Virus record (IMG/VR): IMGVR_UViG_3300045988_147113 | Reading direction: 5' to 3' (one strand) | Origin: a virus | Length of the DNA stretch: 58,419 nt | In this document: positions 121 to 57,258 of the stretch, piece after piece | How positions within the stretch are numbered: the stretch's first letter is position 1 | Layout: each line of letters begins with the position of its first letter | The notes under the pieces: generated by a model | What the model was told of the DNA's origin: nothing | Databases searched by the model: none | Seen by the model: only the letters and a program-made list of their open reading frames with translations | Program-made: the position numbers and the translations under genes

Positions 121-301
121 TGTGTAACGTTTGTGTGACAAAACCGATTTGTGTGTAACGTTTGTGTGACAAAACCGATTTTGGCGTTTTTACCGCATTA
201 AGGGCATTTTCGCTCGTGTCACACAAACGTTACACACAAATCGATTTTGTCACACAAACGTTACACATTTAGAACTGCTTTTGTCACACAAACGTTACAC
301 A
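121..301. repeat. Dyad-symmetric array of the 19-nt motif TGTGTAACGTTTGTGTGAC (iteron, operator or promoter-like)
   Basis: Forward copies at 121..149 and 152..180 (29-nt units, 31-bp period). Reverse-complement copies at 218..236, 249..267 and 283..301. The array lies in the only large intergenic region between the last and first genes. Confidence 0.85.
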
Positions 302-6182: not shown

Positions 6183-6305
6183 TCAGCGGTATCCGCCGGA
6201 CAATGTCTTGACGAACCACCAGAAGAAATATAATCCTCCGGTGAGGATGGAATAGATGCAGACCTTCAGGACGCCAGGTCTTGGGGTTCGATTATCGTAT
6301 GACAT
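6183..6305 (-). CDS. 40-aa hydrophobic mini-protein
   Basis: MSYDNRTPRPGVLKVCIYSILTGGLYFFWWFVKTLSGGYR. Its ATG overlaps the upstream stop (TGATG). A terminator follows. Confidence 0.45.
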   Translation of the reverse strand: MSYDNRTPRPGVLKVCIYSILTGGLYFFWWFVKTLSGGYR

Positions 6306-6832
6306 CAATCCTTCTCCACCTTGTGGAACGTCATGGTGTTCATGGCGGAATCCGGTTCGTCGAAGAATCGAGCTTCATAATCTGATTCCTGAACCGTCAC
6401 CAGCAGCTTCTGCAAATATGCAGTGGTGAACTGATCGTAATGGTTCAGATTGAAGCTTAGCCACGATTCAGTCACGGCGTCGGCGGACACCAGCGGATCG
6501 AGCATCTTGACGGAATCCTCATCCAGCTGGGCGTTGCCATGCGAATTCTTCATCCAGATCTCCGGAGGATTGTAAGACTTGAAGTTGATCTTCACCTGAA
6601 GTGTGTAGATGCCAGGCTCCGTTTCGTCACGGCCCTCATGGAACTTGACGTTCAGGCCAAGGTCCTGAAGCACCTTGGCGTCAGATTCCTCGAGAACGAT
6701 GTTGAAGTTGCGATTGCCGGCCGGATTGTACTTGCCTTCGCGGCCTGCGAAATTCGTCCAGATCAGACGAACGTTCTCGCATTCGATCTTGTTGACGTCA
6801 CCGTTCGGGCGCTTGATGATGTTGATAGGCAT
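6305..6832 (-). CDS. Putative ssDNA-binding protein (gp2.5/DUF2815-like)
   Basis: 175 aa. The N-terminal VRLIWTNFAGREGKYNPAGNRNFNIVL beta-rich region and the acidic C-terminal tail (FFDEPD) fit phage SSBs. It lies in the replication module. The call is tentative. Confidence 0.4.
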   Translation of the reverse strand: MPINIIKRPNGDVNKIECENVRLIWTNFAGREGKYNPAGNRNFNIVLEESDAKVLQDLGLNVKFHEGRDETEPGIYTLQVKINFKSYNPPEIWMKNSHGNAQLDEDSVKMLDPLVSADAVTESWLSFNLNHYDQFTTAYLQKLLVTVQESDYEARFFDEPDSAMNTMTFHKVEKD

Positions 6833-8591: not shown

Positions 8592-9680
8592 TTATCGAGT
8601 CAAGGAAGCAACCAGATCATTGCTTCCAGGATTCGGCGAAATATAGGGTTCGCCGTTTACCAGCCAGTCGAAATCGCCATACTGCGAAATATCATCTCGT
8701 GCCTCATCGGCGAGATGTTCGTAGTAGGTGTAATCGACTTCGTCTTGTTTGTGACTGTCTCGGAGAACGCTCGATTCCTTCCATCGATAGCCCTTGGTAC
8801 CGGACAGCGCGGCGTAACCGCCGTTGCCGTTGTCGCGAACCAACAGACCTCCACCGCAACCCGGTTGGACCGGACTGAAGGCGCTTACCTTTCCGACGAA
8901 ATCATAGCGATGCTCGTCCTCGGGCAGACCTTCGTTGAAGTCTAGGTAGATCGATGTCGTGGCGGATTTGGTTTCGCAAAGATCCTTGAAATCAATCGTT
9001 TCATGAGAGAACAGCGTCTTGAAGACATATGGTACGGCGAACTGTGCACCCGTTGCCGCCCAACCACCATGCGATGCGGCGTCGTGCCCGTCGTCGCCGT
9101 AACAATGATGGGCGATGTACGTCGCTTTGTTGACGATACACATCTTGTCGTAGATCGCTTCGAGTTCGAAATTGTACCCATATTTTTTACCAAAGTCCAT
9201 AACAAATTGCACGATATACTGGTCGGCATCAGCAATTTTAATGGAGTCGGTTTTTACATGTACAGATACATACCCGAGTTCCATGACTTTTTGCTTAAGC
9301 AAAAGCATAAACAAAGCACCACGTTTAGCGACCATGTTTTCAATATTTCGGTCGTTTGATCTATTTTCAACATCGTTGAATTTCGTTGGAAAATGAGCCG
9401 AAGTCAATCCATAAGTCGAATTGATGACGATCTTCAACGCTTGAGCTAACGACTTGGTGTTTTCGCCTTCTTTAAGAAGCGGAGCTAATGCGCCATCCAT
9501 GCATTTTCGGGCTTTTTCAATTTGACCATGTTTAATGAAAATACGAGCTTTCTTAATATCGCTATACTTTTTAGTATAAGGGCCGAAGAAGTTCATATTC
9601 TCAATGCTTGAAGGATGTAGAGATGACACATCCAACAACGCAACATTGCCAAACATTCCTCCGAGTTTCTGACCGCTCAT
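8592..9680 (-). CDS. Family B DNA polymerase, C-terminal (palm/thumb) fragment
   Basis: Motif A is LLDVSSLHPSS (DxxSLYPS-like), motif B is KIVINSTYG and motif C is VHVKTDSI. Its ATG overlaps the HNH gene stop (ATGA). Confidence 0.8.
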   Translation of the reverse strand: MSGQKLGGMFGNVALLDVSSLHPSSIENMNFFGPYTKKYSDIKKARIFIKHGQIEKARKCMDGALAPLLKEGENTKSLAQALKIVINSTYGLTSAHFPTKFNDVENRSNDRNIENMVAKRGALFMLLLKQKVMELGYVSVHVKTDSIKIADADQYIVQFVMDFGKKYGYNFELEAIYDKMCIVNKATYIAHHCYGDDGHDAASHGGWAATGAQFAVPYVFKTLFSHETIDFKDLCETKSATTSIYLDFNEGLPEDEHRYDFVGKVSAFSPVQPGCGGGLLVRDNGNGGYAALSGTKGYRWKESSVLRDSHKQDEVDYTYYEHLADEARDDISQYGDFDWLVNGEPYISPNPGSNDLVASLTR

Positions 9681-10144
9681 GATTTCTCCACTCGTCGAAT
9701 CGTGAATCCTTTATGTTTTTTGACTTTACCAAGTACAGCCTTCGAAATGTTCGATTTTGTACTATGTAAAGCTTTTGCGCATTCAATTTGGCTATCGAAT
9801 TGTTCTCCAGTTTCAATGATCTCAACCGGATAATGATGACCAGGATGAAGCCCTTCCAAATAAGCATGTTTTAGATTCCTAGAATGAGTAGTCCATTCTA
9901 GGTTATCAACAGCATTATTGGCTTTATCTCCGTCAATATGATTGACTTCGTTCCCCGAATGTTTCGGAATCCAAGTTTCAGCGACCAATCTATGAACGAA
10001 TCCGGCTGAAGTTTGTTGATATCCAGAATCATTAATAAATATTGGAAGCTCTCGGCAATGGCTTTGTCGACAACTCACAATTCGTCCTTTATTGGACACC
10101 AAAATTCTTTGATCTTTCAGCCATTGCCTCCAAAGTTCATCCAT
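9677..10144 (-). CDS. HNH homing endonuclease (NUMOD4-HNH-IENR/NUMOD-like) splitting the polB gene
   Basis: The NHIDGDKANNAVDNLEWTTHSRN HNH core is present. The N-terminal W...LVSNKGRIVS is NUMOD4-like. The gene fills the whole gap between the polymerase fragments. Confidence 0.8.
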   Translation of the reverse strand: MDELWRQWLKDQRILVSNKGRIVSCRQSHCRELPIFINDSGYQQTSAGFVHRLVAETWIPKHSGNEVNHIDGDKANNAVDNLEWTTHSRNLKHAYLEGLHPGHHYPVEIIETGEQFDSQIECAKALHSTKSNISKAVLGKVKKHKGFTIRRVEKS

Positions 10145-10147
10145 GAT

Positions 10148-13123
10148 TCACCTTGTACTTTCTAAGTTCATCCATGAGATTTTATTGGTATCCATTCCGA
10201 ACTCTTTATACATGGCTTCAAATTCCTTTCGTCGTTCTTCGCCAGGTTTTTCATAGGACTTGATCATGGTTGATTGATCGATTCCATTCCCATTTGGCAT
10301 TCCATAAACATGGACGTAGCCGCCCTCACTCGGATATTCTCCAAGATATTTGGACTTATGTTCACGATCGGCGAACTTATCAAAAGTATATCCGGGAAAC
10401 TCTTTATGAAGATCAGGCCATGGAAACTCGTCTTGTGGATGTTTGACATCACCAAACACGATTTGTGTGACATGTTGGTTCGTCGAATCATTCGGCGTGA
10501 GGCCGGACAGATTCGCCAGACCTTGACGGGCCACGAAATCCTCATGAAGATGGTTGAACACCGCTTCCGTCGCTCGGACATCATCCTCGCAATATGATTG
10601 CACCAGATCCCAAAGCTTCGGATCGACCGGCTTGTCCCACGGCATGCCGAGTTCGTGATGATCGATTCCAAGCTCGATCTCCCACTTCTTCAATGACTGC
10701 TTCTTTGCGGAGAAGTCGTAGATATCCGTATAGGAGATGTTGTAGGCATTCTGGAACATGGCGTTTCGACTGCGAGGTCCGCCAGCCACGATATCCTGAG
10801 ACAGGTTGTAGAGCTGTTGGTTGTCATAGCCGAGCCAACCCCACGCATACAGCATATGATTGTCGTATCGTCTGTTGTTGAATCCAACCAGCGCCTTGCC
10901 GCAGAGTTTGCGAACATCCTTCGGATCGGGATTGATCAAGGTCTTCACTGGATGATCCTTCTCATCACCTGCGTCTTTGAAGCAGATCATGAATAGGTTC
11001 GGGAACACCTCTACGTCGTAGAACGTCAGAATATCAGGCGTCCCAGTATGCTTTGGCGGTTCCAAGCTATCGGGTTCATCGGAACGAAGCTTCATATTCG
11101 CCACGACCTTCATGCAATAATCTCGATTATGCGTGGAGTTCATGGCAAAATTGAGAATATCCAGACGCATGTCTTCGACGTTATACTGGATGCCAGACTC
11201 GTACGCTTCGTCCAGCAGCTTACAGATGAAGTCGATCGATGGCTTGGTTCCCGGACAATATTCCTTTCTTAGATTCCCTTTGATGAGATTACGAAGATGC
11301 TGCTCATCTTTGATCGCTTTCTCATTGATCATGGTTTTATCTCCTTTGAGAGGAAGACCGCTGGAAATATGCGCGACTTCGAGATCGTTGCATGTGCTGA
11401 GTTTCCTTCGCAATGCAGACTTCCCTCGATACACCTTGCATTCCACGTTGATATCGATCAGAGGCTTCAGTCTCGTCACGTCACCATCGTAAATATAATG
11501 CAGGTGTACGCCCTTACCGGATTTGCTCAATTCCGCATACGTCGGCGGATACTTCGCGGCTTCGGCAAGATTGCGTTCCAGGCTCTTCTCGCCGTCATCG
11601 CCCTTGAGATCAAAGTCGATGACGATATGATTCTCAGGTACTCGTACCCAATGCAGTTTGGTGGTATCCACATCTTTCAATGTGCTGGTCACCTGATCCC
11701 AAGGCAACCGAGGTCCTCCGGTTGGATTATCGGCGGCGTATTGCGCCGGCCAATTCTGAGCCATGCGATCGAATGCCGAATCGGTCGAATCGAGTTCGAG
11801 TTTTCTCGCTTCGATCGGCTTCGGTTTCTCCACTTTCTCGAATTTATCCCAACGGATTCCCTCGAAACCGGTGTTACGAGTGGATTTGCGACCATTGACG
11901 ATGTTGTCAGTCGTCTTGTTGAAATATGATGACAATTCGAACAGGAAGTCATCACGTTTCATGCGCATGGTCACGTTGCCTTCATCACACCAAACCTTAT
12001 ATTGACGCCAAAGTTCGAGGCCATCGATATGATCGTTATCTTCGAATTGGTCGAGAACGCTTGACAAGAACGAATACATATCATTCGTTCTGGCCACCAT
12101 TTCGGTTGGCACGTAATTGCCATATGCGTTCGGACCCAATTCCTGATAGACCTCTCGGCAATGGTGGGCGATCGCACCGAGTTCGAACTTGATGCCGTCC
12201 ATGGCTTCGAAATATTCAGCATTGTTGAGTTTTCGTCCCGATGGATAGACGTCGATCAACCTTCGGATCAGACCAGATTTGGAGTCGGTGATCTTCACTG
12301 GTTTATTCGAGGCCATGAACAGCATTGTCTTGATCGGAATATCATACTGCTTGACGCCTTTCTCATTGACTTTGATGTATTCATGCGAAACAATGGTGTT
12401 CAACAATGAATTATCATCGATCTTTGAGAGGTCGCCGTCGCTTTGAATGGCCACAAGTGGCGCATTCTTGAACGCAGCAGTGGCGAACTGATATCCCTGA
12501 CCAAGTTCCTTGGCATTGAAGAACGAAACGTAGTTCCCGAACAGTTCCTGAATGATATTCAGAATCGTCGATTTACCGGTACCGGGAGCACCGGTAATGG
12601 CGAAGAATTTCTGAATGCGTTTCTGGTCCTTACCATCTACGATCAGACCTATGCCCCATTCGAGCTTTCGACGCTCGTCCGGGTCATAGATCGTTTCCAT
12701 CAGGCGATCATAGTTCGGCGTCGGACCCTCGATGAGATCATATGGCAATTTGAATGATGCGTAATCCTCTCGAGCAACGTCATCATTGTCAAATATAACC
12801 TTCTGATCCAGCATGATGCTGTTGTCATCGAGGTTCTTCAGTTGGGATAGATATCGGTTCCATTGTCCATTGGACATATTGTCCATGTATTCCGGAGTCA
12901 AGGTCTTGTCCGAATGCGTTGCGATATATTCGCTGATATCCCTATCAATGAGTTCGGAGAGGCGACCGACACTTCTGGACCACAGGTGCGTATCTGGATC
13001 ATATACGGCGTAGAACTGTCCACCCTTGACAATAAGATCCTTGAATCCACGGGCCCTAGGATTCGCAATGACCTTGGTTGCGGTTTTGGTGCTTTTGACT
13101 TCAGTCACTCGTATTTGGTCCAT
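10148..13123 (-). CDS. Fusion replicase: SF3 (D5-like) helicase + AEP primase + PolB 3'-5' exonuclease/N-terminal fragment
   Basis: - Walker A is GAPGTGKST (about 12569..12592).
- AEP motifs are IVIDFDL and SKSGKGVHLHYIY (about 11500..11620).
- Exonuclease motifs are ExoI FYDVEVF, ExoII GFNNRRYDNHML and ExoIII YCEDDVRA.
- GGYV is present just before the C-terminus.
- ATG at 13123 follows AAAGGAG. Confidence 0.75.
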   Translation of the reverse strand: MDQIRVTEVKSTKTATKVIANPRARGFKDLIVKGGQFYAVYDPDTHLWSRSVGRLSELIDRDISEYIATHSDKTLTPEYMDNMSNGQWNRYLSQLKNLDDNSIMLDQKVIFDNDDVAREDYASFKLPYDLIEGPTPNYDRLMETIYDPDERRKLEWGIGLIVDGKDQKRIQKFFAITGAPGTGKSTILNIIQELFGNYVSFFNAKELGQGYQFATAAFKNAPLVAIQSDGDLSKIDDNSLLNTIVSHEYIKVNEKGVKQYDIPIKTMLFMASNKPVKITDSKSGLIRRLIDVYPSGRKLNNAEYFEAMDGIKFELGAIAHHCREVYQELGPNAYGNYVPTEMVARTNDMYSFLSSVLDQFEDNDHIDGLELWRQYKVWCDEGNVTMRMKRDDFLFELSSYFNKTTDNIVNGRKSTRNTGFEGIRWDKFEKVEKPKPIEARKLELDSTDSAFDRMAQNWPAQYAADNPTGGPRLPWDQVTSTLKDVDTTKLHWVRVPENHIVIDFDLKGDDGEKSLERNLAEAAKYPPTYAELSKSGKGVHLHYIYDGDVTRLKPLIDINVECKVYRGKSALRRKLSTCNDLEVAHISSGLPLKGDKTMINEKAIKDEQHLRNLIKGNLRKEYCPGTKPSIDFICKLLDEAYESGIQYNVEDMRLDILNFAMNSTHNRDYCMKVVANMKLRSDEPDSLEPPKHTGTPDILTFYDVEVFPNLFMICFKDAGDEKDHPVKTLINPDPKDVRKLCGKALVGFNNRRYDNHMLYAWGWLGYDNQQLYNLSQDIVAGGPRSRNAMFQNAYNISYTDIYDFSAKKQSLKKWEIELGIDHHELGMPWDKPVDPKLWDLVQSYCEDDVRATEAVFNHLHEDFVARQGLANLSGLTPNDSTNQHVTQIVFGDVKHPQDEFPWPDLHKEFPGYTFDKFADREHKSKYLGEYPSEGGYVHVYGMPNGNGIDQSTMIKSYEKPGEERRKEFEAMYKEFGMDTNKISWMNLESTR

Positions 13124-13135
13124 ACCCACTCCTTT

Positions 13136-14612: not shown

Positions 14613-15527
14613 TCAGATCTGATCGTAGACGATGCCGTCGCAGTTGAACTGAAGAAGAATCTCTTCCTTGCCATCCCATGGGCAATCCTTGACGTTATCC
14701 CACGGATCATCGCTGCAACCGAATACGCCGAAGTCGACAATCGAATCGTGATCAGGCGTATTGATCCAACCGAGCACAGCGCCTTCCTTGGTATCAGGAA
14801 GACCGAGCAGACGATAGACATCGTTCAAGAACAGATGCCCGGTGTAATCGAGCTTGTTCTGAGCACGATCCAATGCGGACTTCAACATCACGGTATTCAT
14901 ATCCGGTGATTCGTGATCCCAGATCTGAGAATCCGGTCCGAACCATTTATCGGTCGGACTCAGCGTCTGGACGTTCTGCTCCTTCTTGGTCTCGATGATC
15001 TTGCCTTTGTCGTCGGCGACTTCGACGGTGTCGATGTTCTGATAGAACTTCTTATCGACCTCTTCTCCATACTGGGCCACGACACGTTCGCGGTAATCAC
15101 TAAACTTGGCGCTTACAGCAGCGAATGCCGAAGCAACCGCCGTGTATCGAGTCTGGAGGATGTTGTGTGCCGACAGAATGCAGGCGATGCTCAAGCCGGT
15201 CAGAATAATGGTCGGAGCATAGAGCTTCGCGTAAGCCACGGTGGTGCGCATATAGATAATCTGCTTCGACGAAGCCGCTTCATTGACCGTGAAATCACCA
15301 TCATCGAGCTCGCCGTTGTCCACCATCTTTTCGAGGGTTTCGACGCGGCTCATCTCGGTTTCATGGTTCTTCTTCACGTCATCGATATGCATGGTCGACC
15401 GACATGCGGTGACTGTTGCGGCGACGCCAAGCACGATGCCCGAATATGTCAGGATTTCCGGGCCATGTTTCTTCAGAAAGAGACCGCTCTTAGCTGCGGT
15501 TTTGACCAATGTGCTTTTAATGGACAT
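14613..15527 (-). CDS. Membrane protein, paralog of 17611..18363
   Basis: 304 aa. The two proteins share an architecture: an N-terminal K..G.EILT..G..GV TM hairpin, a second TM segment and a C-terminal globular part with GW...D motifs. Confidence 0.65.
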   Translation of the reverse strand: MSIKSTLVKTAAKSGLFLKKHGPEILTYSGIVLGVAATVTACRSTMHIDDVKKNHETEMSRVETLEKMVDNGELDDGDFTVNEAASSKQIIYMRTTVAYAKLYAPTIILTGLSIACILSAHNILQTRYTAVASAFAAVSAKFSDYRERVVAQYGEEVDKKFYQNIDTVEVADDKGKIIETKKEQNVQTLSPTDKWFGPDSQIWDHESPDMNTVMLKSALDRAQNKLDYTGHLFLNDVYRLLGLPDTKEGAVLGWINTPDHDSIVDFGVFGCSDDPWDNVKDCPWDGKEEILLQFNCDGIVYDQI

Positions 15528-16869: not shown

Positions 16870-17328
16870 TCAGTTATTCTGCTGGTTCAGCTGAGCGAGA
16901 TACTGCGCCGCTTCCGGCGTGAGTGCAGCCTTAGCCGAGCCGTTGCTGATGGCATTCAGGCGATCGGACAAGGCCTTCGGCACCAGACCAGTGAAGAATC
17001 GCGTAGCGAACTGGTCATCGGACATCAGCTTGCCCAACAGACTGTCGTACGCTTCAGACTCCATGAAGATCTTGGTAGTTTCGGGATTCTTTACGAAATG
17101 CGCTTCGCCATCGACTTCGGTTCGCTTGCCATACGATGCCTTGATCAGATCGTCGATCAGATCGAACGTATCATCCGGAGACGCCTTTCCGGAAGTCACG
17201 GCTTCAAGCTTTTCCTGGATGCCGTCCTTCAGCAGTTGACGCATTTCGCGCATGGTGAGATGGAAATATGCATCCATGGTCTTGCTGCTGCCGTCGATGT
17301 CCTCGTAGGAAATGGTTTCCTTGATCAT
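16870..17328 (-). CDS. Hypothetical protein
   Basis: 152-aa ORF. Confidence 0.6.
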   Translation of the reverse strand: MIKETISYEDIDGSSKTMDAYFHLTMREMRQLLKDGIQEKLEAVTSGKASPDDTFDLIDDLIKASYGKRTEVDGEAHFVKNPETTKIFMESEAYDSLLGKLMSDDQFATRFFTGLVPKALSDRLNAISNGSAKAALTPEAAQYLAQLNQQNN

Positions 17329-17610: not shown

Positions 17611-18363
17611 TCAAATAAGATTGCGATAGTCAGCCATCGGCGATTCGTGGAAATTCACCACAAGTGCCGGTTTCCCGTCAGGGGTCAGCGCGGTGCTGAA
17701 ACTCAGTTCGATTGGATGATCCGACGTCCAACCGAGATCATCGCCACAACCGATATAGGGCAGATCCAAGGCTTCATAGAAGTCATTTAACGATGCATAC
17801 ATTTCAGCATTCATCTTGTAATTGACGTCATTCTGGGCCTTGCGGATCTTCTCCAGTGTTGACGGGAAGAACCGTCCGCTGAACCCGTCCATGCACAGCA
17901 CATTGCCGTCGCCGATGACCACGGCCGAAGCGTCGTCTTTGGATTTTGCGATTTGATCCTTAGCTACGGCCGCTTCGATTTCCTTGGCTTTCTTTTCGCC
18001 GACGATCTCGTGCACTTTATCGCGATAGATGGTCGCTGCTTCCTGGGCCATGGTATATGCCGAGGAATATGCGATGATCTTATGTGTGGCGGTCTGATGG
18101 GCTCCGACGATCGCAGTAATCGTCGCACCGACAGTCAACGCGGTCGGAATATAACATGGAGCGATTCGTTTGACGAGCTCCTTCTTGTCACATGGCTTGC
18201 CATCGAGCTCCATGCGATACTCCAGCAGACGATCATTCGCCTGAATGGTATCTCGCGATGCCATGATGGCGGTTCCGATCACGCCCACCACTGCCGTGCC
18301 TGTGAGAATCGTATGGGAATTTCTTCCTAGAAATTTTCGTCCTTTGGTGATAATATCGTTCAC
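17611..18363 (-). CDS. Membrane protein, paralog of 14613..15527 (GTG start)
   Basis: GTG at 18363 follows AGAAAGG. The track ATG at 18447 would place the terminator hairpin 18402..18433 inside the gene. Confidence 0.55.
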   Translation of the reverse strand: MNDIITKGRKFLGRNSHTILTGTAVVGVIGTAIMASRDTIQANDRLLEYRMELDGKPCDKKELVKRIAPCYIPTALTVGATITAIVGAHQTATHKIIAYSSAYTMAQEAATIYRDKVHEIVGEKKAKEIEAAVAKDQIAKSKDDASAVVIGDGNVLCMDGFSGRFFPSTLEKIRKAQNDVNYKMNAEMYASLNDFYEALDLPYIGCGDDLGWTSDHPIELSFSTALTPDGKPALVVNFHESPMADYRNLI

Positions 18364-18401
18364 TATAATGGCCTTTCTTATGAACGATCGAAAAAAAATA
18401 T

Positions 18402-18433
18402 AAAGCCAAAGCCGCATGTGCGACTTGGGCTTT
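18402..18433 (-). terminator. Conserved terminator hairpin
   Basis: AAAGCCAAAGCCGCATGTGCGACTTGGGCTTT, followed on the minus strand by ATATTTTTTTT. Confidence 0.7.
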
Positions 18434-18443
18434 ATAGAACAAT

Positions 18444-18701
18444 TCACTCTTGCGAGGAATCTGTGGATTCAGCGTTGGACTTCGATTCATCGGATGAGGA
18501 ATAGTCCCAATCGTCGTCCTCGTCGTCAATATCTTCGGACTTTCCCAGGTGAATCAGCAGTGCGAGTCCTGCGGCGGCAGCGGCTCCAATGGTGATATCC
18601 CTGATACGGTCCTTGTGATCTTTGACGAACTGGACGATCTTGTTGGGCTTCTTCTCCTCGGTCTCGACGACTTCGGTGGTTTCCTTGTTCTGATCTTCCA
18701 T
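18444..18701 (-). CDS. Small acidic protein with one TM segment
   Basis: Starts MEDQNKETTEV at 18701. The TM segment is ITIGAAAAAGLALLI. Preceded by motif copy 3. Confidence 0.6.
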   Translation of the reverse strand: MEDQNKETTEVVETEEKKPNKIVQFVKDHKDRIRDITIGAAAAAGLALLIHLGKSEDIDDEDDDWDYSSSDESKSNAESTDSSQE

Positions 18702-22227: not shown

Positions 22228-22259
22228 TGTTGTCATTAAAGGCGATGATTCATGCGCGA
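22228..22259 (-). promoter_or_regulatory. Conserved upstream motif, copy 7
   Basis: Minus strand reads TCGCGCATGAATCATCGCCTTTAATGACAACA. Confidence 0.55.
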
Positions 22260-22381
22260 AAAAAAATATAAACGCCATGTCCTGTCTCAGTGGTGGTACG
22301 TGACGTTACAGCTATACTCAACATATCGGATAAATGAGAAGCCGTGTGATTAACGGCTTGTCATTATTAGGATTGATCAAG

Positions 22382-23120: not shown

Positions 23121-23153
23121 ATTTCTTCAATAAAGGACATGTATCATGCGCGA
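23121..23153 (-). promoter_or_regulatory. Conserved upstream motif, copy 10
   Basis: Minus strand reads TCGCGCATGATACATGTCCTTTATTGAAGAAAT. Confidence 0.5.
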
Positions 23154-23161
23154 AAAAAAAT

Positions 23162-24567: not shown

Positions 24568-25235
24568 TATATCGGAGGCTCCTGGGAGGCGTATGCTCCC
24601 GGAAGGACGCTGGTGGGTGTGGATGAGAAACATCCACTTAACAGTACTGGCGGAAGCGAGACACATAGTCATAATCCAGGCACTCTTAGTGCACAGGTCT
24701 CGCTTGACGGACAGAACACCGTCGTACGACGTGTCAGGATCCCTGACTTTGTCGGCGATGTTCGACATATTGGCGATATCTATGGCGGTTCATTCAACGC
24801 AACCTGGGGAGCTGCCATCGTCGGACATTCTGACCCCGCGAGCTCGATGGAACCGTATGTCGCCGTTTGTTATTGGCGTAGAATCGCTTAAGCAACACGG
24901 CACCAATAGCATACTGAAATGTAAGGCGGTTCGATTGGCAAAATACCAGCAACCTTGGTTCCGACATGCGTTGATTGGTACTTCCAGTTAATTGGAGCGC
25001 GCATGTCGGCCGATAAACCAGTTCTTACGCTGGCTGATGCATGATAACCACGATTCCATTCAACTTGGATGTTTCCATTTCCATCAATGTGCAGCGCCGT
25101 TGCTAGATCGGTATCTTTTCCGACATCAACGGTTTTCGCACCGCCCTGCTTGTTGAGGGTGAAGTCAGTATCCGTTGCGGACACACCCACCAGCGTCCTT
25201 CCGGGAGCATACGCCTCCCAGGAGCCTCCGATATA
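24568..25235. mobile_element. Invertible DNA segment 1 (intragenic inverton in a tail-fibre tip gene)
   Basis: A perfect 54-bp inverted repeat: 24568..24621 is the reverse complement of 25182..25235. The repeat flanks 560 bp that hold two convergent alternative 3' gene ends. Confidence 0.8.
24622..24891 (+). other. Silent alternative C-terminal cassette for gene 24888..25349
   Basis: It has no own start or RBS. The frame continues the IR-encoded YIGGSWEAYAPGRTLVGV into DEKHPLNSTGGSETHSHNPG...SSMEPYVAVCYWRRIA, a tail-collar-like ending. Confidence 0.75.
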
Positions 25236-25349
25236 GGACGCCGGCGAAGTGTTGGTGGATGTCGCCAGAATCGTGCCGACCGGCCAAAACGTATTACGAA
25301 TCTTCGCAATAAGATGTTGTACGCCTGCCTGATCCAAATATGCAACCAT
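24888..25349 (-). CDS. Tail-fibre tip / receptor-binding protein C (tail-collar-like), current orientation
   Basis: 153 aa from MVAYLDQAGVQHL (ATG at 25349). It ends PPYISVCYWCRVA. The N-terminus is paralogous to gene 25692..26137. Confidence 0.7.
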   Translation of the reverse strand: MVAYLDQAGVQHLIAKIRNTFWPVGTILATSTNTSPASYIGGSWEAYAPGRTLVGVSATDTDFTLNKQGGAKTVDVGKDTDLATALHIDGNGNIQVEWNRGYHASASVRTGLSADMRAPINWKYQSTHVGTKVAGILPIEPPYISVCYWCRVA

Positions 25350-25374
25350 TGTAGGTCTTGCCTTTCCGTGAGGA

Positions 25375-25946
25375 GTCGGCAAAACCGGCGGAGAGAAGAC
25401 GCATAAACATACGTACGGCATTGTGTTCGGTACTAGTTATGGAATGTGTGTATTGACAGACGATCGACCTTCACCACATATTGGTCTCATCGATTATTCT
25501 CTGACCGTTGGCAATCGTATTCGGCGACACGGCATTCCAACTATCAGTACAATCACGAACAGCTTTGCGGATACGGTCTATGGATCATTTGGTGAAAATA
25601 AACAGCTGGCACTTCGAATGAATGAAGCACACACCACGACAAACTCATCAATGGAGCCATATATCGCCGTCTATGTTTGGAGGCGCACCGCTTAAGCCGT
25701 CCTTCGCCAAATATAAACCGCGATATATGGCTGCAAGTTGTTATGCGGTTTGTCGTTTCCGATAGCAATCGTAACTGCGCCAATCCAGTGGGAATCAGCC
25801 CCAGGGGTTGCTAATGTAGCTAAGCGAACACCGTAATCGTGGTCAACGTCCCTAAACAAAGCAGCGCTCGTTCCTGGAGCATGCGAATGTTTTGCTAATT
25901 CATCAATAGTTAGTTTATGCGTCTTCTCTCCGCCGGTTTTGCCGAC
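25375..25946. mobile_element. Invertible DNA segment 2 (intragenic inverton in the second tail-fibre tip gene)
   Basis: A perfect 34-bp inverted repeat: 25375..25408 is the reverse complement of 25913..25946. The repeat encodes VGKTGGEKTHK in frame on both arms and flanks 504 bp with two convergent 3' ends. Confidence 0.8.
25409..25695 (+). other. Silent alternative C-terminal cassette for gene 25692..26137
   Basis: The frame opens after the TGA at 25369..25371 and reads GVGKTGGEKTHK-HTYGIVFGTSYG...SSMEPYIAVYVWRRTA. No RBS or start context. Confidence 0.75.
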
Positions 25947-26137
25947 GGTGAAGTCTGTATCGGTGTCCGATGCAGAGACCATTACTCGTCCCTGCGCATA
26001 GCGTTCCCAGGTGCCACCGAATAAACTCGCCGGGGACGTGCTGTCAGTGCTGAAATAGAGAGATCCAACGGGCTGGATCCGGTCAAGAACCTTCCTGACT
26101 AGATACCGAGCCCCCCCTCGTCAAGATAAGCTACCAT
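25692..26137 (-). CDS. Tail-fibre tip / receptor-binding protein B (tail-collar-like), interrupted by a frameshift at a G7 run
   Basis: The ATG at 26137 follows AGGAGG. It reads MVAYLDEGG and then stops at 26099..26101. The -1 frame continues ARYLVRKVLDRIQPVGSLYF...GGEKTHKLTIDELAKHSHAPG...NLQPYIAVYIWRRTA and is collinear with gene C. Confidence 0.65.
26111..26117 (-). other. Homopolymeric G7 (C7 on the plus strand) slippery or phase-variable tract
   Basis: It reads G GGG GGG in the zero frame. An eighth G, or a -1 slip, restores the full-length fibre-tip ORF. Confidence 0.8.
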
Positions 26138-26161
26138 GATATCATACCTCCTAAAACATCA

Positions 26162-26833
26162 TCAAATTCTGAAGAAACCGTCGATTGTGTTGTTAGAAAT
26201 CGAGCCGATCGCATCGAGTTTCGCTTTATCGCCTTTAGACATCAAACCGTCTTTTGACGGTGTTGCGAGACCGATGGCTCCGGTGACGTTGCTCGAGAGA
26301 CCGTCGAGTTTCTTCTTGTCTGCTGCCGACATAAGGCCATTAACCGACTGAGTGGCTACGGAGTATGTCGTGTTGTTGTCCGGAGGGACAGCCCATGTAC
26401 CGTCGCTTCTCAGATAGCGGTTGTTCTCACCTGTTGCCGGAGCAGGAACAAGGCCAGCCTTTCCAGCTGCCGATGTCGTTGCCCCTCCCATGTTTCCGTA
26501 AGTCGTATCCTGCGTGGTGAACGTCGATGCCGTGCCGTTGCCTTTGGTCACCGTGACCGTGCGGCCGGATGCGGTGACGGACTTCACATACGTCGAGGCG
26601 ATGTTCTGACCGACGGAATCGTTGGTGGCGGCATTGGCGTTGGCGACGGCTGACGTGATATCGCTGCCCGGATGCTTGTGGCTTTTAGGAGCGAATATGC
26701 CGGTGAGAACGCTCTTCAACACGGACCACAACACGATTCGAGTGCCTGCGGTGCCCTGCGTCGAGTCGATGATGAAACAGTCGGAATCAGCCGGTGCTCC
26801 GGTGATCTTGGTATAACTGTTGATTCGCGCCAT
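26162..26833 (-). CDS. Tail fibre protein
   Basis: 223 aa. It carries the typical fibre motifs LRSDGTWAVP, NGLMSAADKKKLDGL and DGLMSKGDKAKLDAI. Confidence 0.7.
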   Translation of the reverse strand: MARINSYTKITGAPADSDCFIIDSTQGTAGTRIVLWSVLKSVLTGIFAPKSHKHPGSDITSAVANANAATNDSVGQNIASTYVKSVTASGRTVTVTKGNGTASTFTTQDTTYGNMGGATTSAAGKAGLVPAPATGENNRYLRSDGTWAVPPDNNTTYSVATQSVNGLMSAADKKKLDGLSSNVTGAIGLATPSKDGLMSKGDKAKLDAIGSISNNTIDGFFRI

Positions 26834-39233: not shown

Positions 39234-40355
39234 TTACCTAACGCGAAGAACCTGACCAGGATAGATAAGATCAGGATTCGCCAAACCATTCAGATCACGA
39301 ATGTGCTGCCAGCTGGTGCCGTATCGAGCGGCGATGGCCGACAGAGTATCTCCAGGCTGAACCGTGTGGTATTCGGCAATCGACTGTGGTGATCCTCCGG
39401 AAATATTCAGCACTTCACCTGGATAAATCAAGTCGGGATTGCCGGAATGGAATCCGCTGATCTGAGACTGATCCACACCAAGTTTTGCGGCGATCGTCGA
39501 CAGTGTATCGTTGGGCCGAACCGTATATGTCCGACCCGGGGATACGGGAGCAGCGAGCTTCTGATTCACCAACGCCTGAACGGCAGCATAACGACCGCCG
39601 AGCTTCTGCTTGCGAGCATCACCGTCACCGAATTCGCCGCGAATCACGGCATTGGCGAGATCGTCATCGGAACGTCCGGCAAGCGGATCGGCAGGCTGCG
39701 AAGGAGAAACATTCGAAGCGTTTCCGCCGCCAGTCACATACTTGTCGAACGTGGCGCCATCGCCGTAGAACTTGTTCAGATCCAGATTTCCGCCATAGCC
39801 AGGAAGGCGACCGGTGGAAGAATACTGGCGAATGACGCAAGCGTAAGCACCTTCGTTCCACGGAGTGTCCTGATATCCGGTAGGATTCATATTCGCATAC
39901 TGCGCGATCCACAGCCCACAGTTCTGACGATTGGCGACAGCGGCGACCTGAGCATAATAAGATGCCGACGAGTAAATGAGCGGAGGAATTCCCGTACGAG
40001 CCTTCACCTGAGCGACAACTTGTTCAAGATACCCCTCATTGCCCCAAGCGGAATTCTCTTGAGATTCCCAATCGATACAGAACAGACCTTTGCCAACCCA
40101 ATTGGCACAATTGTCGACGAAGAAATTGGCTTCGGCGATGGCGTTGCCACCGGAGACGTAATGATAGACGCCGAAACGCTTTCCGGACTGACGTGCCTGC
40201 TCAACTTGTCGAGCGCAGTCAGGAGAAACATATCCAGTCCCCTGAGTGGCCTTTGCGATGACGAAATCGGCGGGAACAGCGGTAAGATCGATGTAGGCCT
40301 GCCAATTCGAGATATCGATACCATTGAGAAACATGATATCTCTTTTGAGAGACAT
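39234..40355 (-). CDS. Endolysin: GH25 muramidase + Cpl-7-like domain + two LysM domains
   Basis: The N-terminus (GIDISNWQ...[12 protein letters not shown]...GVYHY) is GH25. The middle ([37 protein letters not shown]) is Cpl-7-like. The C-terminus has 2x Y.V..GDTLS.IA...G LysM repeats. Confidence 0.85.
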
Positions 40356-53518: not shown

Positions 53519-56320
53519 TCACTTCCCAAGATTCTCAGACAATGTTGAAGTCGAAATACCCAAAGCATCTGCGACTTCTGCATTGGTATAGCCAGCATTC
53601 ATGAGCGATTTCGCTCTAGCAATAGCCCAAGAAGGAAGCTTTTCTTTCTTTCTCGGAGTAGCTAGTTCTCGAACTCGATCAGGATCGGCGTATTGCAGTA
53701 TCTCACGAAGACGATTTGCTGAGATGGCCCTTGCTTGAATTGCCTCCCAGTCTCGATCCGTAAGATCCACCCTCTTGGATTGAATACCAACAATAGCTCT
53801 AGCTCGTTTGAGTTCCTTTTGTCCAGCTTTCTTCAGATCTTCCTTATCATAGTCAGGATGATCCTCTTTGATGGCACGAAGTCTCTCATTGGCTATGACC
53901 TGAGCCTTTCGTTCCAGGGGCTGGTTCTTCTTGGCTTCGTTGAGCTGGGCTACCATCTTCTTAACTTCGGGGGCGTATTGTTTTCTAGCCTGGGGGTCCA
54001 CTTTGAAAGGCTCTGCCTGGAGGTAGGCCTTTCGAGATTGGTTACCCAAATCTTTCATGCCGTTAGAGTAACGGGCATAAATAGATTCCATCAAAGTCCC
54101 AGAAGAAAGTTCCCTAGCATCCTTGGCCTCGGCGAGTTTCGTAGACTTCGTAATATTGGGGACTGTTTCATAACGAACAACCTCACCCTTCGAATTACGA
54201 ACCGCTCGATGATGAGATTCACCGGTAAGTTCATAACGTTTCTCACCAGTCTCAGGATCAATCGGGCCGCCATTCTTCATGGATCGGGGCTTGCGCTCCG
54301 GAAGACGAACTACACCCTTAGCCCTTGAAACAAGAGTAGAAGCGCCACCACTTTGGAACTTTTCCTTGAGGGCCTTAATGTTATTATCCGTCTCGGATTG
54401 TTTCCAATCAAGCTTATGCTTTTCGGAATCAATCACCACCATGGAATGACGAACCGCACGAACCAATTCATCAGGACGAGCGCCTTGGATTGTCATATCG
54501 GTAATCAAATTGGATACGATACCCATCTGACGCTGCTTCATCTCAGGAGAAATCAAACGCTTGTCATTGGGCTTGATGTCCTTTGGCAAGGCGTATGATT
54601 CCTTGGGATCAAATCCTTGAAGCCCCTTCAATGGAGCAGCGTTCTTGATCTGACCGCTTTTATTTGGAATTACCTGTACGGTATCTCCATCAAAATCGGC
54701 ACCCGATAGACGTTCGGCGACCTTGGAATTAATACCCACTGCATCCTTGGCATTGCCGATATATTTGAGACCTTCCTTGTTGCGATTGTTCACCACAAGT
54801 TCAGGCATCTCAAATCGACCAGCGTGCGGGTATCGAACCAGCATCACCTTCTCGCCATTTCGGTAGTTCGGAGCATAAATCTCACGATCGCTCAACGAAT
54901 TGATCGGAAGGATCACATGAGACTTCTGACGGGGAACAGCGGCAGCCTTCAAAGAAACGGCAGCAGAATCGCATTCGTCGGCAAACTCTTGAAGAAGCTT
55001 TTGCTTGACGACTGGATTGGTCAACGATTTGATTTCTTTAAGATTCAATCGAGAACGATCCAGAGCAATGCCAAGTTGCTGAGAAGCAAACGAAGGTTCC
55101 TGCTTGGAAAGCATCTGAGATGGTAGATTCTTAGACCAACCATCCCAATCACCTTCGGTATTCAAAATATTCAAAGACGATTGTTTTCTCTTACCGGTTT
55201 TTGGATCCACATAAGTAGGTTGCAAACGAACGGCTGCCTTGAATGGGTTCTCCGTATCGATGACTTCTGTTCCGTTGGCAGACTTGATAGTCTGCATCTT
55301 CTTCAGAACATCCATCTTCGGAGTGCCCTTGTGTTTGTTGGTACAGAAAGCCACATCAACACCAGGTGGGAACGACCGAGGATCACCAACGAGTGCCATG
55401 CCTTTGAGGTAGTGGGTACCGTCAACGGCAATTCGAACCTGAGCGTAACGTTTACCATCCGGCAACTGAAGATCAGGAGCCTTGGGATTGATCAGCATCA
55501 CACCGTCTCGTTCGACGCCTTTGAAACCAGCAAACTTGTCTTCAGCATAAACGATCTTAACTCGCTTACTGTCGATTGAGACTGGAGGCTTCAGTGCTCC
55601 GGAAAATCCTGCTGGAATGTCATCGAGGTTCTTCGCCAAAGAAGCAATACGCTCACGATGAGCGTACAGACCTTCCGGGCCTGAAACCTTGACACCGGGA
55701 GCGGTCAACAGCTTGAGGGTCGTCTTCTGGCCAGGACCAGTGCCGAGCTGATTCTCATACATGTAGTGGACTTCGTAACCATTATCGACCGCCATCTGCA
55801 CTGCGACCTTGAGCTTATCGGCAGAAGTTCCCAGATATAATTCTGAGGATTTACCGATATCAAGACCACCGTTCTTCGGAACCGAAGCCATAAGCTTTTC
55901 TGAGATGTCGGTAGCGATGTCCTTACGAACTTCACGACCATCTTTGAGCCAGCCACGGACTGTCGATTCAGAACGTCCAAGCTCTTTGCCGATGGCTGTG
56001 GCACCCCAACCTTGCTTCTGAAGATTCAGCGCTCGGTTGCGAGTATAGTTCTCGGCTTCATTCCATGCCATGGAATATCGTGCTCGGTATTCGGTTGTAG
56101 TCATGCCAAGCGCTCGTGCGATCTCTGTTGAATTGCTGATCCCTTGCTCTTTGAGCCGAGCCACTTGACCCAGCAAGCCATTGGCTCTGGTCAAGGAATC
56201 CTCATCGCCAGAACCCCATTTGTACCGTCCGGAATGCGGAGTGGCTCCTTGATGTGGGATACCGTAATGCTCGAAGTCATACAACGACTCGTCATCACCG
56301 GAATATGACTCTTCAGCCAT
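53519..56320 (-). CDS. Putative single-subunit two-barrel (YonO-like) DNA-dependent RNA polymerase with terminal HTH modules
   Basis: 933 aa.
- VMLVRYPHAGRFEM...GINSKVAERLSGADFDGDTVQVI (ADFDGD at 54683..54700) mirrors the beta-prime DPBB motifs R.P.lH and NADFDGD.
- The upstream DKFAGFKGV resembles the beta DPBB motif GDKmAGRHGnKGV.
- HTH-like segments lie at both termini. Confidence 0.6.
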   Translation of the reverse strand: MAEESYSGDDESLYDFEHYGIPHQGATPHSGRYKWGSGDEDSLTRANGLLGQVARLKEQGISNSTEIARALGMTTTEYRARYSMAWNEAENYTRNRALNLQKQGWGATAIGKELGRSESTVRGWLKDGREVRKDIATDISEKLMASVPKNGGLDIGKSSELYLGTSADKLKVAVQMAVDNGYEVHYMYENQLGTGPGQKTTLKLLTAPGVKVSGPEGLYAHRERIASLAKNLDDIPAGFSGALKPPVSIDSKRVKIVYAEDKFAGFKGVERDGVMLINPKAPDLQLPDGKRYAQVRIAVDGTHYLKGMALVGDPRSFPPGVDVAFCTNKHKGTPKMDVLKKMQTIKSANGTEVIDTENPFKAAVRLQPTYVDPKTGKRKQSSLNILNTEGDWDGWSKNLPSQMLSKQEPSFASQQLGIALDRSRLNLKEIKSLTNPVVKQKLLQEFADECDSAAVSLKAAAVPRQKSHVILPINSLSDREIYAPNYRNGEKVMLVRYPHAGRFEMPELVVNNRNKEGLKYIGNAKDAVGINSKVAERLSGADFDGDTVQVIPNKSGQIKNAAPLKGLQGFDPKESYALPKDIKPNDKRLISPEMKQRQMGIVSNLITDMTIQGARPDELVRAVRHSMVVIDSEKHKLDWKQSETDNNIKALKEKFQSGGASTLVSRAKGVVRLPERKPRSMKNGGPIDPETGEKRYELTGESHHRAVRNSKGEVVRYETVPNITKSTKLAEAKDARELSSGTLMESIYARYSNGMKDLGNQSRKAYLQAEPFKVDPQARKQYAPEVKKMVAQLNEAKKNQPLERKAQVIANERLRAIKEDHPDYDKEDLKKAGQKELKRARAIVGIQSKRVDLTDRDWEAIQARAISANRLREILQYADPDRVRELATPRKKEKLPSWAIARAKSLMNAGYTNAEVADALGISTSTLSENLGK

Positions 56321-56927: not shown

Positions 56928-56958
56928 GATGACCCCTAAAATGAAAAGCCGTGATTCC

Positions 56959-57258
56959 CTAGGCTTTGGATAGATATCGCTTGACTTGGTCCACCACATC
57001 GTCTTCATTCGAAGGATCGACAAACGAAGCAAAACCGCCATCGTCGTTGATCTTCTGAACGAAGTGATCCTGATTTGGTCGATGGGATGCGGTGGCTGAG
57101 CGTTTGACTTCCAGCGAAGCAAATCGGCCATGTGCGAGGATCAAGAGATCCGGGATGCCTTGCACTTGGTTCGCATCGGCTTTCATGACAATGGATCCTG
57201 GAATCTCGGTCCTCAATCGCTTGACCAGTTTACGCTGGAAGTCTCGCTCTAAAACCAT
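56959..57258 (-). CDS. VRR-NUC domain nuclease
   Basis: 99 aa. GIPDLLILAHGRFASLEVKR is the VRR-NUC PD...(E)VK core. Confidence 0.65.
   Translation of the reverse strand: MVLERDFQRKLVKRLRTEIPGSIVMKADANQVQGIPDLLILAHGRFASLEVKRSATASHRPNQDHFVQKINDDGGFASFVDPSNEDDVVDQVKRYLSKA

What the first reader, a model, noticed from the sequence alone, without database searches (positions are those of the whole stretch)
26099..26137. G7 homopolymer interrupts the fibre-tip gene 9 codons after its start: phase variation, -1 frameshifting or a homopolymer error
ATG 26137 (AGGAGG RBS) reads MVAYLDEGG through a run of seven G (26111..26117 on the minus strand). It then hits TAG at 26099..26101. The -1 frame continues without stops as ARYLVRKVLDRIQPVGSLYFSTDSTSPASLFGGTWERYAQGR...

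This continuation aligns residue for residue with the intact paralog (MVAYLDQAGVQHLIAKIRNTFWPVGTILATSTNTSPASYIGGSWEAYAPGR). In the zero frame the tract is G GGG GGG, a formal X XXY YYZ slippery heptamer. An eighth G would also restore the frame.

On top of the inversion switch, this would add an ON/OFF or low-level expression layer to one of the two tip genes.
Basis: seen in the sequence. Interest (0 to 1): 0.65.

Follow-up and report, generated by a model that had tools for sequence, protein, structure and literature searches.

The report
Poly-G on/off switch in phage tail-tip gene
A run of seven G's really does break the reading frame of one of two tail-fibre tip genes of this uncultured gut phage, and related phages carry 5 to 9 G's at the same spot, so it most likely works as a slippage-prone on/off switch that is currently off, a mechanism already known from Campylobacter phages.

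Summary
On the minus strand, ATG 26137 with an AGGAGG ribosome-binding site reads MVAYLDEGG into a G7 run (26111-26117) and stops at TAG 26099-26101. One more G would give a 148-aa protein that matches Pfam Gp10_C end to end (E 1e-26).

The G7 is not a one-off consensus error. Four other independent assemblies of the same strain (99.98-100% identical flanks) also carry G7.

Across 44 distinct relatives the uninterrupted tract is G5 (1), G6 (8), G7 (8), G8 (16) or G9 (2), so 18 of 35 are out of frame. All 9 interrupted tracts are in frame.

On/off state shows no phylogenetic signal, with at least 13 switches. The downstream reading frame stays intact in 15 of 18 off alleles.

Off alleles occur only where the paralogous tip gene B is intact (14/14). 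All 8 genomes that lost B have gene A in frame.

This fits a hypermutable poly-G contingency locus (slipped-strand mispairing) on top of two intragenic inversion switches. Conserved programmed -1 frameshifting is not supported.

It is a new member of a known kind (Campylobacter phage poly-G tracts; T-even contingency loci).

The parts
26147..26152 (-). AGGAGG ribosome-binding site of tip gene A, 9 nt upstream of the ATG
   Evidence: Read directly; conserved in all relatives.
26135..26137 (-). ATG start codon of tip gene A
   Evidence: the same start is used in in-frame relatives.
26111..26117 (-). Poly-G tract (G7) at codons 7-9, the proposed slipped-strand switch. G7 is out of frame (off); G8 or G5 would be in frame.
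   Evidence: Relatives carry G5-G9. The same strain has G7 in four other assemblies and G9 in one 2x contig.
26099..26101 (-). TAG that ends the 0-frame 12-aa peptide MVAYLDEGGLGI
25692..26111 (-). Body of tip gene A in the shifted frame (139 codons plus TAA). It holds the Gp10_C domain: a constant N-terminal part, the inverted-repeat arm, and cassette A1.
   Evidence: Pfam PF21939 E 1.1e-26 and phrog_24267 E 1.5e-37. T4 gp10 C-terminal domain 2fkk, E 5.5e-5.
26067..26113 (-). Predicted hairpin abutting the tract. The outer helix uses the last three G's; the inner helix starts 6 nt after the tract.
   Evidence: consensus -27.2 kcal/mol, z -1.7, and 0 of 24 pairs with compensatory changes. Its significance is unproven.
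25913..25946 (.). Inverted-repeat arm of inverton A inside gene A (encodes VGKTGGEKTHK)
   Evidence: 34 nt, 100% complementary to 25375-25408.
25375..25408 (.). Second inverted-repeat arm of inverton A
   Evidence: The segment is flipped in the same strain (L166) and between L019 and L020.
25409..25695 (+). Alternative C-terminal cassette A2. It reads in frame through the repeat arm and ends ...EPYIAVYVWRRTA*.
24888..25349 (-). Paralogous tip gene B (153 aa, Gp10_C), intact and without a G tract (GCA GGC at the equivalent codons)
   Evidence: B is intact in all 14 relatives with gene A off whose B status is known.
25182..25235 (.). Inverted-repeat arm of inverton B inside gene B (encodes YIGGSWEAYAPGRTLVGV)
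   Evidence: 54 nt, 100% complementary to 24568-24621.
24568..24891 (+). Second arm of inverton B plus alternative cassette B2 (ends ...EPYVAVCYWRRIA*)
26162..26833 (-). Upstream fibre or shaft protein (223 aa) to which the tips presumably attach
   Evidence: The gene order Dit, Sipho_Gp37..., fibre, tip A, tip B comes. The attachment itself is an inference.

Best explanation
The G run is a hypermutable poly-G tract, a contingency locus, placed at codons 7-9 of tail-fibre tip gene A of an uncultured human-gut siphovirus of about 58.3 kb.

Proposed mechanism:
1. Slipped-strand mispairing during DNA replication adds or removes G's.
2. G8 (or G5) puts the Gp10_C tip protein in frame. G6, G7 and G9 stop translation after 12-17 codons.
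3. In this window, and in this strain generally, the tract is G7, so tip A is off.
4. The phage then relies on the intact paralog B.
5. Each tip gene also carries its own intragenic inverton that swaps the C-terminal, presumably receptor-binding, half. The population can therefore present {A1, A2, none} x {B1, B2}.

Shown:
- the anatomy;
- that the DNA-level G7 is reproducible;
- tract-length polymorphism that toggles the frame across relatives;
- the dependence of off alleles on an intact B;
- that inverton A flips.

Inferred:
- that switching is frequent and reversible within a population;
- that the tips bind receptors;
- that off/on changes host range.
For: 1. G7 is real at the DNA level. 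L166, L167, L168 and L170/L173 come from different samples and assemblers, have 99.98-100% identical flanks, and all carry G7. L169, the same strain at 2x coverage, carries G9.
2. The census covers 44 distinct sequences. Uninterrupted tracts are G5 x1, G6 x8, G7 x8, G8 x16 and G9 x2, so 18 of 35 are out of frame. The 9 interrupted tracts are all 8 nt long and in frame (Fisher p=0.006). Contigs at about 62-64x coverage give G6 and G9.
3. There are at least 13 on/off changes on a tree of the flanks, indistinguishable from random placement (permutation mean 14.0). L019 (G8) and L020 (G6) differ at 1 of 575 flank positions.
4. The off alleles are not decaying. None of 43 constant regions contains a stop codon. 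pN/pS is 0.58 for off-off pairs against 0.49 for on-on pairs. 15 of 18 off alleles keep a full-length reading frame.
5. Frame matters. B is deleted or absent, with different junctions, in 8 distinct genomes, and all of them have A in frame (3 through interrupted, 'locked' tracts). All 14 off genomes with known B status keep B intact (Fisher two-sided p=0.011).
6. GGG is the rarest Gly codon at 5.1%, yet the tract is kept.
7. A second clade (L023-L044) shows G8, G6 and interrupted tracts at the same codons.
8. There is precedent. Hypermutable poly-G tracts have been reported in Campylobacter phages (Sorensen 2021, Cell Rep 35:109214). That paper could not be opened here, so only its title was seen, in the reference lists of PMC12823448 and PMC10877375. 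That the tracts lie in receptor-binding-protein genes is from my own memory. Contingency loci in T2/T4 are described in PMC12633550.
Against: - Heterogeneity within one population, the switching rate and true reversibility are therefore not shown.
- The same strain is G7 in five assemblies, so at consensus level the off state is stable across samples rather than visibly flickering.
- The relatives differ by 2-6%, so the changes could have accumulated slowly.
- The only other long homopolymers covered by the fetched loci are intergenic. They also vary and give no clean coding control.
- The receptor-binding role of the tips rests on domain homology and cassette architecture, not on an experiment.
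Confidence: 0.7

Rival explanations
1. Plain loss of function at a mutational hotspot. Gene A is redundant with B and is simply being lost in this lineage. The tract varies because homopolymers mutate easily, not because switching is used. The G7 allele is an early pseudogene.
For: - The same strain is G7 in five assemblies.
- Off alleles occur only where B can substitute.
- Two G6 genomes (L017/L087, L005/L094) have a single cassette lying in the disconnected orientation, and L112 has a second frameshift.
- G6 alleles, two steps from G8, are as common as G7 alleles.
Against: - On/off state is scattered over the tree with at least 13 changes.
- There are no stop codons in any constant region, and pN/pS in off lineages equals that in on lineages.
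- Both cassettes stay intact in the window.
- A tract built from the rarest Gly codon is retained in 35 of 44 relatives and in a second clade, although a synonymous change would stabilise it.
Confidence: 0.15
2. Recoding. The G7 allele is expressed through -1 ribosomal slippage on G GGG GGG, possibly helped by the adjacent hairpin, or through transcriptional slippage, for example by the phage's YonO-like RNA polymerase. Tract length would then set a low or high level rather than off or on.
For: - There is a formal X XXY YYZ heptamer.
- A predicted hairpin has its inner helix starting 6 nt after the tract.
- Low-level compensatory frameshifting on a G run is documented for herpesvirus thymidine kinase (PMC5009743).
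- The phage encodes a phrog_4291 polymerase.
Against: - The need to shift is not conserved. 26 of 44 relatives are single-frame, and G6 and G9 would need a +1/-2 shift.
- All 8 genomes without B have A in frame, 3 of them with the tract interrupted. This is unexpected if out-of-frame alleles were adequately expressed.
- GGN A-site codons are among the poorer -1 shifters in E. coli (PMC4066793).
- The hairpin shows no compensatory changes, a covariation term of only -0.23 and z -1.7.
- The 0-frame product is a 12-aa peptide.
Confidence: 0.08
3. Consensus or assembly error. The true sequence is G8 and the gene is intact.
For: Homopolymers are the classic site of indel errors, and raw reads could not be inspected.
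Against: - Five independent assemblies of the strain from different samples and pipelines give G7.
- G8 is assembled without trouble in 16 relatives.
- G6 and G9 appear in contigs with 62-64x coverage.
- Errors would not correlate with the presence of paralog B.
Confidence: 0.03

Closest known systems
Hypermutable poly-G tracts in Campylobacter phages (Sorensen et al. 2021, Cell Rep 35:109214). The paper could not be opened here; only its title was seen, in the reference lists of PMC12823448 and PMC10877375. That the tracts lie in receptor-binding-protein genes is from my own memory.
   Same: A poly-G run lies inside the coding sequence of a phage host-recognition gene. Its length changes toggle the reading frame, giving phenotypically mixed phage populations.
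   Different: - This is a different phage lineage: an uncultured human-gut siphovirus with a Gram-positive-type endolysin, not a Campylobacter myovirus.
- There is a single tract at codons 7-9 of a small, separate Gp10_C tip gene.
- It is combined with two intragenic invertons and a tract-free paralog as backup.
- Switching is inferred here from comparative genomics, not measured.
Phage contingency loci in T2/T4 and other phages (Gomez, Barrick and Waters 2025, PMC12633550)
   Same: Simple-sequence repeats of 6 nt or more in phage genes give reversible frameshifts by polymerase slippage, used as bet-hedging.
   Different: Those cases are mostly poly-A runs in genes such as agt and rIIA, and were shown experimentally. 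Here it is a poly-G run in a tail-tip gene, and the evidence is natural variation among metagenomic genomes.
Invertible tail-fibre segments (Mu G segment, P1 C segment) and gene-altering programmed inversions (PMC9881135)
   Same: Inverted repeats inside the gene swap alternative C-terminal fibre cassettes. Both orientations of inverton A are seen in nature.
   Different: - No Gin/Cin-type or tyrosine recombinase was found in the phage.
- There are two separate invertons in two tandem paralogs.
- This is the context of the finding, not the G tract itself.
Indel in the G run of herpesvirus thymidine kinase with low-level compensatory frameshifting (reviewed in PMC5009743)
   Same: A G7/G8 run in which a 1-nt indel breaks the frame, with rare ribosomal slippage on the G run restoring a little product.
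   Different: That is a eukaryotic virus and ribosome, selected by a drug. Here the pattern of in-frame alleles in genomes without B argues that out-of-frame alleles are functionally off.
Programmed -1 frameshift of phage tail assembly chaperones (G/GT type)
   Same: A slippery heptamer in a tail-module gene of a siphovirus.
   Different: The G/GT shift is conserved in all relatives and yields two functional products. Here most relatives need no shift, and the 0-frame product is a 12-aa peptide.

Membership tests
Simple-sequence-repeat contingency locus (slipped-strand phase variation) | Uninterrupted homopolymer of about 7 nt or more inside a reading frame, typically near the 5' end | tested here: met
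   G7 lies at codons 7-9 and is the only G/C run of 7 or more in the genome.
Simple-sequence-repeat contingency locus (slipped-strand phase variation) | Tract length differs among close relatives in steps that toggle the reading frame, while the rest of the gene stays intact | tested here: met
   Tracts run from G5 to G9 and 18 of 35 uninterrupted alleles are out of frame. 15 of 18 off alleles keep a full reading frame, and no constant region contains a stop.
Simple-sequence-repeat contingency locus (slipped-strand phase variation) | Recurrent, reversible switching (on to off to on) | tested here: inconclusive
   At least 13 on/off changes with no phylogenetic signal imply recurrence. The direction of change and true reversion are not shown, and recombination could mimic them.
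Simple-sequence-repeat contingency locus (slipped-strand phase variation) | Length heterogeneity within one clonal population, far above the background indel rate | not testable with these tools
Simple-sequence-repeat contingency locus (slipped-strand phase variation) | Phenotypic consequence of the switch | tested here: inconclusive
   The evidence is indirect: off alleles occur only with B intact (14/14), and all 8 genomes without B are in frame (p=0.011). No adsorption or host-range data exist.
Programmed -1 ribosomal frameshift site | X XXY YYZ slippery heptamer in the 0 frame | tested here: met
   G GGG GGG. GGN A-site codons are relatively poor shifters (PMC4066793).
Programmed -1 ribosomal frameshift site | Two-frame architecture conserved among relatives | tested here: not met
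   26 of 44 relatives encode the protein in one frame. G6 and G9 alleles need a different shift.
Programmed -1 ribosomal frameshift site | Downstream stimulatory structure supported by covariation | tested here: inconclusive
   A hairpin is predicted with compatible spacing, but 0 of 24 pairs show compensatory change, z is -1.7, and the sequence is constrained by coding.
Gp10_C (PF21939) tail-fibre or baseplate tip domain | Full-length match to the family profile above the gathering score | tested here: met
   The frame-joined gene A scores E 1.1e-26 (94.9 bits against a cutoff of 27) over profile positions 2-139 of 139. Gene B scores E 1.4e-15. T4 gp10 structures 2fkk and 5hx2 are hit by sequence. 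The AlphaFold model was too poor to test the fold.
Gene-altering programmed inversion (Mu G-segment type) | Inverted repeats inside the gene flanking alternative in-frame cassettes | tested here: met
   The arms are 34 nt and 54 nt and perfectly complementary. Cassettes A2 and B2 read in frame through the arms.
Gene-altering programmed inversion (Mu G-segment type) | Both orientations occur in nature | tested here: met
   Inverton A is flipped in L166 relative to the window, with 100% identical flanks, and between L019 and L020. Contigs break at the inverton.
Gene-altering programmed inversion (Mu G-segment type) | Linked site-specific invertase (Gin/Cin/Hin serine or tyrosine recombinase) | tested here: not met
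   None was found in about 50 reading frames scanned with Pfam and PHROGs. Small reading frames were not all scanned.

The most novel reading that the evidence does not exclude
Tract length may act as a rheostat rather than a binary switch. G7 alleles would be decoded at a low level by -1 slippage on G GGG GGG. The hairpin that abuts the tract could assist this, or the phage's own YonO-like RNA polymerase could stutter on the run. 'Off' virions would then still carry a few A tips. Together with two invertons that have no recombinase, and with paralog B, this would give a graded, multi-state host-range device in a Gram-positive gut phage.
Probability: 0.1. Interest if true: 0.7.

Novelty: new member of a known kind. 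Interest (0 to 1): 0.55.

Why it matters
Host range of gut phages is hard to predict. This clade appears to stack three cheap diversity generators on one recognition module: a poly-G on/off tract, two cassette-swapping invertons, and a backup paralog. If confirmed, it would have several consequences.

- It would extend phage contingency loci from Campylobacter and T-even phages to uncultured phages of the human gut.
- It shows that frameshifted tail genes in metagenomic phage genomes should not be auto-'corrected' or dismissed as pseudogenes.
- It gives a natural experiment on tip redundancy: A is always in frame when B is lost.

Tried and rejected
- **Raw reads:** The decisive 7-versus-8 G read count was therefore impossible.
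- **Cultured relatives:** megablast of the locus against cultured phages gave no match. The large terminase subunit (TerL) gave only about 70% matches to unannotated faecal contigs and Streptomyces phages, so no host could be assigned.
- **Isolate prophages:** the GTDB genome scan with the tip protein gave only relatives at 47% identity or less, in metagenome-assembled genomes of Bacilli and Clostridia, none with a G tract. No isolate prophage was available for comparison.
- **Control homopolymers:** the only other long runs covered by the loci (A8 at 22259 and 23153) are intergenic and also vary. They cannot calibrate the error or mutation rate in coding sequence.
- **Same-strain on allele:** an exact-sequence look-up of the repaired (G8) and G5 versions of this strain's protein found neither in the collection.
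- **Structure:** the AlphaFold2 model of an in-frame allele with 38 homologues reached only pLDDT 46.8. No fold search was run on it.
- **Recombinase for the invertons:** none was found.
- **Alternative start codon:** the shifted frame has no start codon after the tract until Met 53, which would truncate the domain. An alternative start was therefore rejected.
- **Promoter and terminator scan around the locus:** nothing above background.

Full report
**What is in the window**

The window is a complete, circularly assembled phage genome: its ends overlap by 119 nt. Genes run mostly on the minus strand.
- It is a siphovirus. It encodes TerL, a portal, a prohead protease/capsid protein, a major tail protein, a 2564-aa tape measure, Dit and a Sipho_Gp37-type protein.
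- Its endolysin combines GH25, CW_7 and LysM, which points to a Gram-positive host.
- Close relatives are 55-60 kb contigs from human-gut metagenomes.
- No cultured relative and no host could be identified.

**The observation**

- AGGAGG (26152-26147) precedes ATG 26137.
- The 0 frame reads MVAYLDEGGLGI and stops at TAG 26101-26099.
- The G7 run occupies 26117-26111.
- The frame entered by re-reading or adding one G is open for 139 codons, to TAA 25694-25692.
- The joined 148-aa protein matches Pfam Gp10_C (PF21939) over the whole profile (E 1.1e-26), PHROG tail families, and T4 gp10 by sequence.
- It aligns with paralog B (24888-25349) from residue 1.
- The shifted frame has no usable start codon before Met 53, so the G7 allele cannot make a complete domain by ordinary translation.

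**Is it more than chance?**

A G7 somewhere in 58 kb is expected by chance: shuffles give 2.5. Three things stand out, however.
- This is the only G/C run of 7 or more in the genome.
- It is made of the rarest Gly codon (GGG, 5.1% of 802 Gly codons). None of 50 Gly-Gly pairs in 20 genes is GGG-GGG.
- Paralog B has GCA GGC at the equivalent position.

**Context: two invertons**

Each tip gene contains its own inversion switch.
- Inverton A has 34-nt perfect arms at 25913-25946 and 25375-25408.
- Inverton B has 54-nt perfect arms at 25182-25235 and 24568-24621.
- Between each pair of arms lie two tail-to-tail C-terminal cassettes. The silent ones (A2 and B2) read in frame through the arm and end in the family's ...PY(I/V)AV.(Y/V)WRR.A motif.
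- Inverton A is flipped in another assembly of the same strain with otherwise 100% identical sequence (L166). It is also flipped between L019 and L020.
- Several assemblies break exactly at the inverton, as expected for populations of mixed orientation.
- No recombinase was detected in the phage.

**Is the G7 an error?**

Raw reads could not be examined. Exact-protein look-ups nevertheless found the same strain in other samples.
- L166 (SAMN00990327), L170/L173 (SAMN00769057), L167/L174 (ERZ783633, 33x coverage) and L168 (SRR1166589) have 99.98-100% identical flanks and all carry G7.
- A 2x contig of the strain (L169) carries G9.
- A one-off consensus error is therefore very unlikely.

**Census in relatives**

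A pattern scan of IMG/VR and of metagenome contigs gave 44 distinct sequences, including the window.
- Uninterrupted tracts: G5 x1, G6 x8, G7 x8, G8 x16, G9 x2. That makes 18 of 35 out of frame.
- Nine sequences have the tract interrupted by a substitution (GGAGGGGG, GAGGGGGG, GGGGGGAG, GGGGGGGA, GGCGGGGG). All nine are 8 nt long and in frame (Fisher p=0.006).
- Out-of-frame lengths also occur in contigs with 62-64x coverage.
- A second, more distant clade (MVSYLDQGGVQHL...) shows G8, G6 and interrupted in-frame tracts at the same codons. Its G6 genome has an intact downstream frame and a second tip paralog.
- Distant homologues in metagenome-assembled genomes have no tract.

**Dynamics**

- On a neighbour-joining tree of 575 flanking nucleotides, on/off state needs at least 13 changes. 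This is no fewer than random placement (mean 14.0; 37% of permutations reach the observed value or lower). Tract alleles need at least 24 changes.
- L019 (G8) and L020 (G6) differ at 1 of 575 flank positions.
- No constant region (64 codons, 43 sequences) has a stop codon.
- pN/pS is 0.58 for off-off pairs and 0.49 for on-on pairs.
- 15 of 18 off alleles keep a full-length frame. Two G6 genomes have a single cassette lying in the disconnected orientation, and one short contig has a second frameshift.

**Does frame matter?**

- Paralog B is truncated at its repeat arm or absent in 8 distinct genomes. The junctions differ, so these are independent deletions.
- All 8 have gene A in frame, three of them through interrupted ('locked') tracts.
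- All 14 off genomes with known B status have B intact (Fisher two-sided p=0.011).
- This argues three things: out-of-frame alleles are functionally off, at least one tip is needed, and the variation is not sequencing noise.

**Frameshifting**

- G GGG GGG is a formal slippery heptamer.
- A hairpin is predicted that abuts the tract, with its inner helix 6 nt downstream.
- Against this: the requirement to shift is not conserved, G6 and G9 alleles need another shift, and the hairpin has no compensatory changes (0 of 24 pairs, z -1.7). In addition, GGN A-site codons shift poorly in E. coli (PMC4066793), and the genomes without B avoid out-of-frame tracts.
- Low-level leakiness, as in herpesvirus thymidine kinase (PMC5009743), cannot be excluded.

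**Verdict**

The finding is real. It is best explained as a poly-G contingency locus that is off in this strain, layered on twin invertons and backed up by paralog B.

The kind is known: poly-G tracts in Campylobacter phages (Sorensen 2021, seen here only as a title in the reference lists of PMC12823448 and PMC10877375) and contingency loci in T2/T4 (PMC12633550). This is a new member, in an uncultured gut siphovirus clade, with an unusual combination of layers.

The missing piece is read-level or experimental proof of switching within a population.

Noticed in passing
window 24568-25946: Two separate intragenic invertons (34-nt and 54-nt perfect arms) sit in two tandem tip paralogs, yet no serine or tyrosine recombinase was detectable anywhere in the phage. 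The phage does encode an exonuclease (56334-57131) and an ssDNA-binding protein (6305-6832). Inversion may therefore depend on homologous recombination or on a host enzyme.
   Followed up: partly
L086/L018, L091/L015, L113, L116, L001, L022, L122, L127 (region after tip gene A): Paralog B has been deleted independently several times, with different junctions at or near its repeat arm. Every such genome has tip A in frame.
   Followed up: yes
L023, L030-L038, L044 (about position 4938): A more distant phage clade has a homologous tip gene (MVSYLDQGGVQHL...) with G8, G6 (out of frame) or interrupted tracts at the same codons, plus an inverton and a second paralog.
   Followed up: partly
window 53519-56320 (-): A 933-aa protein matches phrog_4291 (annotated 'RNA-dependent RNA polymerase', E=0) along its whole length, with helix-turn-helix (HTH) domains at both ends. 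From my own knowledge this resembles the single-subunit, YonO-like phage RNA polymerases.
   Followed up: no
window 8592-13129 (-): The DNA polymerase appears to be split. The 362-aa reading frame matches only the C-terminal part (953-1291 of 1304) of phrog_4210 'DNA polymerase'. An HNH endonuclease gene (9677-10144) lies between it and a 993-aa D5/DUF5906-type protein, which suggests a homing-endonuclease insertion.
   Followed up: no
window 22259-22266 and 23153-23160: Two intergenic A8 runs (T8 on the coding strand) are hypervariable in relatives, at 6-24 nt and 4-8 nt. They could simply be neutral, or they could tune promoter or ribosome-binding-site spacing.
   Followed up: partly
L142 positions 958 and 2957: In a phage-like contig binned with a Bacilli metagenome-assembled genome, a G10 run fills the spacer of a perfect TTGACA-(19 nt)-TATAAT promoter, and this is duplicated 2 kb apart. 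It looks like a phase-variable promoter of the spacer-length type.
   Followed up: no
window 122-300 and 58243: The 19-mer GTGTAACGTTTGTGTGACA occurs three times on the + strand and three times on the - strand, clustered at the junction of the circular genome. It may mark an origin, iterons or phage-polymerase promoters.
   Followed up: no
window 14613-15527 and 17611-18447 (-): Two paralogous DUF6353 proteins (E 1e-54 and 2e-61) flank a tail-assembly-chaperone-like gene (16870-17328) outside the main tail module.
   Followed up: no
window 39234-40355 (-): The endolysin (GH25 + CW_7 + 2 LysM) is embedded between the tape-measure/chaperone region and the major tail protein gene, rather than in a lysis cassette at the end of the structural module.
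   Followed up: no
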